From positions 434,001-498,000 of the forward strand of contig OX597836.1 in NCBI GenBank assembly GCA_951406725.2: a stretch of 64,000 nt of DNA, given 5' to 3'. The position numbers and the translations under genes were made by a program. Position 1 is the stretch's first letter. Every line of letters starts with the position of its first letter. The notes beneath the pieces were generated by a model that made no database searches, had not been told where the DNA came from, and was given only the letters and a program-made list of their open reading frames with translations. Positions 15,546 through 15,745 of the stretch are shown piece after piece. The DNA comes from Octopus vulgaris (lineage: Eukaryota).

Positions 15546-15745
15546 GGAGATGTACTTGCATAGCAAGTGACCTGATCTGAGATCGTGTGCTGAAGCAAAA
15601 ACAATTGAAACGTGGAAGGTGTTTATAAGCCATTTAAGAAACACACAAAAACCGTTTGATCCACTTCCAAGATTTAAATTTAATTTGTCAAAATATTTTC
15701 GTCGCTTTGAAACCGCGACCTGTTCACTGACAAAATTCCGTGACA
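15546..15745 (-). mobile_element. Short hammerhead-bearing (Penelope-derived/retrozyme-like) element; its terminus continues at 13537-13548
   Basis: It lies between a (CA)n run and, across the TSD-bounded insertion, a (TA)n run. It contains the hammerhead fold listed next. Confidence 0.6.
15684..15734 (-). ncRNA. Minimal type I hammerhead ribozyme, G3:C8 variant
   Basis: - strand reads UUUGUCA | GUGAACA | G | GUCGC-GGUUUCAAA-GCGAC | GAA | AAUAUU | U | UGACAAA. Stem I is 7 bp, stem II is 5 bp, and stem III is palindromic. Confidence 0.7.

What the first reader, a model, noticed from the sequence alone, without database searches (positions are those of the whole stretch)
15684..15734. Complete hammerhead ribozyme fold with a compensatory G3:C8 core swap
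Seen (- strand): stem I UUUGUCA/UGACAAA, core GUGAACA, one extra G, stem II GUCGC/GCGAC, GAA, palindromic AAUAUU, U17. Known: the canonical CUGANGA core has a C3:G8 tertiary Watson-Crick pair, and swapped pairs can retain activity. Here both positions are changed reciprocally while U4, G5, A6, A9, G12, A13, A14 and A15.1:U16.1 are intact. Standard CUGANGA searches would miss it. Inference: a functional, probably dimer-dependent, self-cleaving RNA cutting after UUU (between 15691 and 15690).
Basis: partly seen in the sequence, partly recalled or inferred. Interest (0 to 1): 0.8.

Follow-up and report, generated by a model that had tools for sequence, protein, structure and literature searches.

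The report
Penelope retrotransposon hammerhead with swapped core
This is a hammerhead-ribozyme motif in the end repeat of a jumping gene with thousands of copies; its core carries a swapped G-C pair that is kept across several related families and is likely still able to cut RNA (untested), although most copies span the predicted cut site intact.

Summary
The motif is exactly as described (15734-15684, minus strand). It lies in a 198-nt dead fragment of the terminal repeat (pLTR) of a Penelope-like retrotransposon; at least 4,413 genomic sites carry the G3 core. In long copies this repeat follows a GIY-YIG endonuclease gene and runs on into the reverse-transcriptase ORF. G3:C8 is family-wide (173 of 192 copies) and is shared by older related lineages (17 of 20 with positions 3, 7, 8 left free), while sister families and a metagenomic outgroup keep C3:G8: a natural compensatory swap, known to rescue activity in mutagenesis papers. 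Natural U3:A8 is in print; I found no natural G3:C8, but three key papers were not readable. Cleavage is untested. Against a central role: 82 of 100 unbiased copies begin upstream of the cut, none pile up at it, and 17 of 24 solo copies carry an untemplated 5' G, the likely mark of capped, uncut RNA. The scan has met Penelope hammerheads (canonical, U3:A8) on other DNA, none listed with G3:C8. Verdict: new variant of a known kind.

The parts
15684..15734 (-). Minimal type I hammerhead motif with G3:C8 core pair (G3 15727, C8 15722), extra G between A9 and G10.1, palindromic AAUAUU, U17
15690..15691 (-). Predicted cleavage site (after U17, UUU triplet); not tested
   Evidence: hammerhead numbering applied
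15545..15742 (-). Solo pLTR fragment of a Penelope-like element (element positions 8-204 of about 206), up to 95% and median 90% identical to 181 long matches among fetched loci
15545..15633 (-). First 29 codons of the element's RT-endonuclease ORF (ATG at 15633); in long copies the frame continues
15545..15600 (-). 'Tail': stretch between the two preferred 3' ends of family copies (about nt 143-151 and 201-206)
   Evidence: 132 of 139 arms end at one of the two; compare PMC11167929
15743..15764 (-). (GT)n microsatellite directly upstream of the fragment; flank, not shared by other copies

Best explanation
The motif is the minimal hammerhead in the terminal repeat of a high-copy Penelope-like retrotransposon, and its G3:C8 pair is a compensatory swap shared by a group of related families, likely kept by selection for a slow, dimer- or protein-assisted self-cleavage that is predicted but untested. 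Shown: context, copy number, family-wide swap, canonical sisters, two fixed 3' ends, a fixed 5' boundary about 17 nt before stem I. Inferred: the element's mRNA starts at that boundary, so the ribozyme sits in the 5' UTR (cut about 60 nt after the start, 57 nt before the ATG); the element's RT primes internally at the tail and runs off the capped 5' end, which leaves the many 150-200 nt copies such as this one. Inferred: cleavage acts on a minority of transcripts or at another stage (two motifs in tandem or read-through RNA pair through AAUAUU), releasing unit-length RNA or removing the cap. This particular copy is a passive by-product.
For: Copies: 1,124 exact 35-mers; 4,413 sites with G3 against 146 without; none of the 100 listed non-G3 sites is C3:G8. 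Among 192 copies not chosen on the core, 173 are G3:C8 and 128 fully intact. Parent: GIY-YIG ORF end upstream (PF01541 E 1.8e-5), repeat running on into the ORF in L202, L203, L214-L216, L219, direct repeats 4,261 nt apart around ORF pieces in L186. Sister element L182 (intact 1,312-aa frame, 54% identical) belongs to C3:G8 families (254 pattern sites); metagenomic relative L345 (42%) has a canonical core. Older lineages: with 3, 7, 8 free, 17 of 20 are G3:C8, 0 are C3:G8, N7 is C 14, U 3, A 3 and loop II differs in nearly all. A tree of downstream sequence, without the motif, puts all 17 G3:C8 rows on one side (74/90, weak). Subfamily-level changes hit loop II 5 of 9 positions, core 0 of 11, stems 1 of 28 (p 4e-4). 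Stem II pair 10.4 covaries between families (AU 25, GC 12 of 47). C3G/G8C is the one double mutant that rescues this region (PMC9901934) and partly rescues a Penelope hammerhead (PMC11167929). Untemplated G in 17 of 24 solo boundary copies, C or T in 49 of 49 run-on copies.
Against: No cleavage data. 82 of 100 unbiased copies start upstream of the cut and only 3 start within 5 nt of it, no more than random truncation gives. 7 of 192 copies are G3:G8, some in tandem or ORF-linked copies. Core plus stems are not significantly more conserved than the rest of the repeat (1 of 39 vs 12 of 147, p 0.31), so overlapping promoter or protein-binding constraint could explain part. The modelled double hammerhead (-25.4 kcal/mol) is no more stable than two open monomers (about -24.8 to -27.6). 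The tree support is weak, one C3:G8 row (L378) falls among the G3:C8 rows, and rows were picked by patterns that fix 3 and 8, which inflates that covariation. No intact ORF of this family was found.
Confidence: 0.72

Rival explanations
1. The fold is kept but no longer cuts: it works as a protein-binding or promoter element of the pLTR, and the swap was fixed in a common ancestor and simply inherited.
For: Templates were mostly uncut; in the anole element hammerhead mutants do not affect insertion in vitro and no RNA-seq reads end at the cut (PMC11167929); Naiads proliferate without the motif (PMC8557442); core not more conserved than the rest of the repeat within the family.
Against: A double transversion landing on the one swap known to rescue catalysis, then kept while N7, loop II and stem III changed, is what catalytic constraint predicts; the 3:8 pair has no known role outside the active fold.
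Confidence: 0.2
2. The 200-nt unit is an independent non-autonomous element (retrozyme or SINE-like) that circularises through the ribozyme and is copied in trans.
For: Short copies vastly outnumber long ones (4,211 sites for a pLTR 29-mer, against 24 matches to the ORF's 5' part); L217 holds 8 direct units 166-192 nt apart; retrozymes are proposed to derive from pLTRs (bioRxiv 2026.07.22.740005).
Against: The unit is the pLTR itself and includes the ORF start; ends match the internal RT start sites and an RNA 5' end, not a circle junction at the cut; most copies are solo or head-to-head inverted (17 of 20 loci, 6 of them one re-amplified event).
Confidence: 0.05
3. The fixed 5' boundary is a 3' splice site of a pLTR intron, not a transcription start; the extra G is the end of a short first exon.
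For: The upstream sequence reads like branch point, pyrimidine tract and AG (883 sites); in Drosophila virilis Penelope an intron ends at helix I (PMC4209133).
Against: Beyond the single G the flanks share nothing (position -2 is A 11, T 9, G 2, C 2 of 24), so no exon is carried along. This rival changes only the RNA model, not the identity of the motif.
Confidence: 0.15
4. Chance resemblance to a hammerhead.
For: No Rfam hammerhead match.
Against: 0 hits in 200 shuffles; homologous position in sister families carries the canonical core.
Confidence: 0.01

Closest known systems
Minimal hammerheads of metazoan Penelope-like elements (Cervera and de la Pena 2014, PMC4209133; main text parts 1-2 of 4 and supplement file 2 parts 1-2 of 3 read)
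   Same: Type I, in the pLTR, extra nucleotide between 9 and 10.1, G10.1:C11.1, short palindromic stem III, thousands of mostly single copies.
   Different: Core is G3:C8. That paper reports U3:A8 in Schistosoma; none of the 56 rows of its Fig. S3 has G3:C8.
PAc (Poseidon) element of the green anole (Frangieh et al. 2024, PMC11167929; parts 1-2 of 4 read)
   Same: Hammerhead near the ORF start, two internal RT start sites bounding a tail, AT-rich targets, uncut RNA as main template; engineered C3G/G8C partly restores cutting.
   Different: There the swap is engineered and the ORF starts inside the motif; here it is natural, the motif lies wholly in the inferred 5' UTR, and the protein has a CX3CxxC linker (Neptune/Nematis type).
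Natural core variants of hammerheads (Perreault et al. 2011, PMC3088659; section 8 and passages read)
   Same: Natural covariation at positions 3 and 8.
   Different: Reports U3:A8 only; the G3:C8 purine/pyrimidine reversal is not named in the text read (figures not held).
Neptune/Nematis clades of EN+ Penelope-like elements (Craig et al. 2021, PMC8557442; passages read)
   Same: Single ORF RT plus C-terminal GIY-YIG, CX2-5CxxC linker, partial tandem and inverted insertions, tail at one end, (TA)n bias.
   Different: Clade not resolved here for lack of reference sequences; resemblance to Nematis is recalled, not tested.

Membership tests
Hammerhead ribozyme (type I, minimal PLE form) | U4 G5 A6, A9, G12 A13 A14, A15.1:U16.1, H17 in order around a three-way junction | tested here: met
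   core minor-allele mean 0.027 over 255 arms
Hammerhead ribozyme (type I, minimal PLE form) | Watson-Crick pair between positions 3 and 8 | tested here: met
   G3:C8 in 173 of 192 and 17 of 20; C3:G8 in sisters. The literal canonical letters C3/G8 are not present, hence 'variant'.
Hammerhead ribozyme (type I, minimal PLE form) | Stems I and II formed, G10.1:C11.1, extra nucleotide after A9 | tested here: met
   stem II 92% of cells paired in 47 rows, first three pairs fixed by the search patterns
Hammerhead ribozyme (type I, minimal PLE form) | Short palindromic stem III that can pair in a dimer | tested here: inconclusive
   AAUAUU is self-complementary and conserved, AAUU in older lineages, but the modelled dimer gains no stability
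Hammerhead ribozyme (type I, minimal PLE form) | Site-specific self-cleavage | not testable with these tools
   only assembled contigs available
Canonical tertiary-stabilised hammerheads (Rfam models) | Match to a curated covariance model | tested here: not met
   no hammerhead family at E<=10; not filed under these models
EN+ Penelope-like element | One ORF with RT and C-terminal GIY-YIG endonuclease | tested here: met
   PF01541 E 1.8e-5; RT motifs visible; best named relative annotated as RT-domain protein, 54%. Pfam RVT models did not hit; no intact copy of this family found
EN+ Penelope-like element | pLTRs flanking the ORF, carrying the hammerhead | tested here: met
   L186, L203, L313
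EN+ Penelope-like element | Inverted 5'-truncated partner and tail at one end; (TA)n targets | tested here: met
   (49 of 100 with tail)
Neptune or Nematis clade | CX2-5CxxC linker before the endonuclease | tested here: met
   CX3CxxC; definition from PMC8557442
Neptune or Nematis clade | Placement in an RT tree with reference elements | not tested
   no reference sequences held
Non-LTR retrozyme | Tandem monomers each with a hammerhead | tested here: not met
   window copy is solo; only L217, L215, L023 show direct tandems

The most novel reading that the evidence does not exclude
This is the first natural hammerhead lineage with the reversed G3:C8 core pair, kept under catalytic selection across an old group of cephalopod-type Penelope elements, and it works as a slow switch in the element's 5' UTR that removes the cap from, or unit-sizes, a minority of transcripts while uncut capped RNA is what gets retrotransposed.
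Probability: 0.3. Interest if true: 0.68.

Novelty: new variant of a known kind. Interest (0 to 1): 0.45.

Why it matters
Hammerheads in Penelope-like elements are known, but whether they matter is open: they cut poorly in vitro and are dispensable for insertion in the one reconstituted system. A natural reciprocal swap at the one core pair where a swap rescues catalysis, kept through several lineages beside canonical sisters in the same genome, is evolutionary evidence that the active fold is selected, and gives a matched natural pair (G3:C8 against C3:G8) for assays. It also means CUGANGA- and UUGANAA-based surveys miss thousands of motifs per genome. The untemplated 5' G offers a genomic read-out that the copied RNA was capped and uncut.

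Tried and rejected
Rfam, whole window and local: no hammerhead, only microsatellite-driven miRNA noise and one tRNA. Sequencing runs: no RNA holder listed on record, only contigs; four runs of four organism labels hold the family, with no difference shown at positions 3 or 8 among the rows displayed (37 rows not shown), but contigs cannot show ends, strand or cleavage; not used as evidence. The 500-nt shared downstream flank of L031-type loci first looked like the ORF; it is a carrier element that re-amplified one inverted pair. The GIY-YIG ORF behind L019 belongs to another family. A canonical subfamily inside the family was sought and not seen (0 of 100 listed). U3:A8 rows among sister families (4 rows) are few enough to be decay of old copies; not claimed. 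G3:G8 copies as an evolutionary intermediate: seen (7 of 192) but they carry the modern family's sequence; not supported. Metagenome scan gave only 2 loci of 66 candidates; L346 ends at the ORF and was not examined further. Literature for natural G3:C8: searches found only engineered cases (PMC11167929, PMC9901934, PMC3884650 passage). Not held: Lunse et al. 2017, Przybilski and Hammann 2007, a 2012 hammerhead review; file 1 of the PMC4209133 supplement could not be searched and part 3 of file 2 was not read; the hammerhead lists in the PMC8557442 supplement were not read. Any of these may already list G3:C8. Earlier scan notes for this genome or sequence: none.

Full report
Observation. Stems I and II are the predicted fold and stay so inside the surrounding 198 nt. 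A descriptor with any Watson-Crick 3:8 pair gave 1 hit in 44 kb of the window and none in 200 shuffles. Rfam has no hammerhead match here.

A repeat. The motif sits 8 nt inside a repeat spanning 15742-15545. The genome (2.8 Gb; the best named protein relative is from Octopus vulgaris, so an octopus-type host is my inference) holds 1,124 exact copies of a 35-nt core stretch, 4,413 sites with G3 and 146 without. Of the first 100 G3 sites listed 97 have C8; of the first 100 non-G3 sites none is C3:G8. Among 192 copies fetched on other grounds 173 are G3:C8 and 128 have core and four inner pairs of both stems intact. The swap is therefore a family trait, not a quirk of this copy.

The parent is a Penelope-like element. 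132 of 139 arms end at one of two points about 55 nt apart, often as head-to-head inverted pairs (17 of 20 loci, 6 of them one re-amplified event) next to (TA)n: the tail and inverted structure described in PMC8557442 (passages) and explained as two internal RT start sites in PMC11167929. 883 sites continue upstream through an (ACAT)n-rich stretch to the end of a GIY-YIG ORF. Downstream, the repeat's last 29 codons (ATG at window 15633) continue into the ORF in L202, L203, L214-L216 and L219. L186 has two direct motifs 4,261 nt apart around ORF pieces. The protein has RT motifs, a CX3CxxC linker and the endonuclease, i.e. Neptune/Nematis type; I did not resolve the clade. I found no intact frame of this family, though some copies are 99-100% alike over 261 nt.

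The swap is compensatory and old. A pattern with the same stems but C3:G8 finds 254 sites belonging to sister families whose downstream sequence and ORF start are homologous; one has an intact 1,312-aa frame, 54% identical over the RT-EN part (that copy's own motif has A9C). A metagenomic relative at 42% has a canonical core, and 53 of the 56 rows in Fig. S3 of PMC4209133 have C3, the rest U3, so G3:C8 is the derived state. Older lineages share it: with positions 3, 7 and 8 left free, 17 of 20 sites are G3:C8, none C3:G8, N7 varies (C 14, U 3, A 3) and loop II differs in almost every one (one of the 20 is the main family). A tree of 47 downstream sequences, motif excluded, puts all 17 G3:C8 rows on one side with weak support (74/90) and one C3:G8 long branch among them (rows shorter than 75 nt after trimming microsatellites were dropped). 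In a 47-row alignment the 3:8 pair is CG 21, GC 18, UA 4, other 4 and stem II pair 10.4 is AU 25, GC 12, but these rows were chosen by patterns fixing 3 and 8, so and one search are the fair counts. Within the family, variants above 15% fall on loop II 5 of 9, core 0 of 11, stems 1 of 28, rest 12 of 147; loop against core plus stems p 4e-4, core plus stems against the rest p 0.31. In print, C3G/G8C is the only double mutant rescuing this region in a full pairwise scan (PMC9901934 passages) and partly rescues the anole Penelope motif.

What the copies say about cutting. In the first 100 sites chosen on a 29-mer downstream of the motif (4,211 in all), 13 run on upstream, 47 start at a sharp boundary about 17 nt before stem I, 22 inside the motif before the cut, 3 within 5 nt of the cut and 15 later; 3 is what random truncation gives (p 0.8). 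So 82 of 100 came from RNA that was uncut or re-joined. Directly before the boundary, run-on copies have C or T (49 of 49) whereas solo copies have G in 17 of 24 (15 of 22 distinct flanks, p about 1e-6 against 0.2), with nothing shared further out. An extra G is the known mark of reverse transcription through the cap (PMC4038843 passages). I infer a capped transcript starting at the boundary, with the motif in its 5' UTR; a 3' splice site reading of the same boundary is the rival. This matches the anole result that unprocessed RNA is the template.

Mechanism. Most likely: the element's RNA folds stems I and II readily; stem III is one pair unless two motifs meet through AAUAUU, and the modelled dimer is no more stable than two open monomers, so cutting would be slow and need tandem RNA or the element's protein, as reported for relatives. 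Cutting would release unit-length RNA from tandem or read-through transcripts, or strip the cap 57 nt ahead of the ATG. Uncut capped RNA primed at the tail yields the short copies, of which the window's is one. Context, counts and covariation are shown; start site, cleavage and its role are inferred. Sequencing data could not test this (contigs only).

Novelty. Penelope minimal hammerheads and natural U3:A8 are known, and earlier notes of this scan report such motifs in other genomes. I found no natural G3:C8 in six searches, but Lunse 2017, Przybilski 2007, a 2012 review and some supplements were not seen. New variant of a known kind; interest 0.45.

Noticed in passing
L217 (G000:C28:4994870-4997936), also L023, L215: Eight direct pLTR units 166-192 nt apart, each with the G3:C8 motif: a retrozyme-like array and a natural dimer substrate.
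   Followed up: partly
L031, L032, L036, L043, L044, L045, L053: One inverted pLTR pair with the same junction re-amplified inside a larger element with 98-99% identical flanks ending in a hairpin and CTAG (Helitron-like by recall).
   Followed up: partly
L154-L180 type sister family: A C3:G8 sister family whose 3' side does not give a clean U16.1-H17-stem I register (extra bases before the stem I arm); possibly a degenerate or bulged variant.
   Followed up: no
L019:1620-2289 and L007:2772: Other Penelope-like families with canonical-type hammerheads; in L019 this family's fragment abuts another element's endonuclease ORF.
   Followed up: no
window 5033-7006 (+): Intronless-looking 657-codon frame with a helix-loop-helix domain (PF00010, E 5e-15).
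   Followed up: partly
window about 28990-38943 (+): Exons of a short-chain dehydrogenase gene (PF00106), HSDL2-like by recall.
   Followed up: partly
window 19091-19163 (-): tRNA-Met(CAT) gene or tRNA-derived repeat.
   Followed up: no
window 8416-9168 (+): Broken fragment resembling the thumb region of another Penelope-like element (recalled motifs; no Pfam hit).
   Followed up: no
window 14360-14920: Another dispersed, partly palindromic repeat shared at 72-90% with many fetched loci.
   Followed up: no
window 44880-56388: An 11.5-kb (TA)n-rich array with strong strand skew.
   Followed up: no
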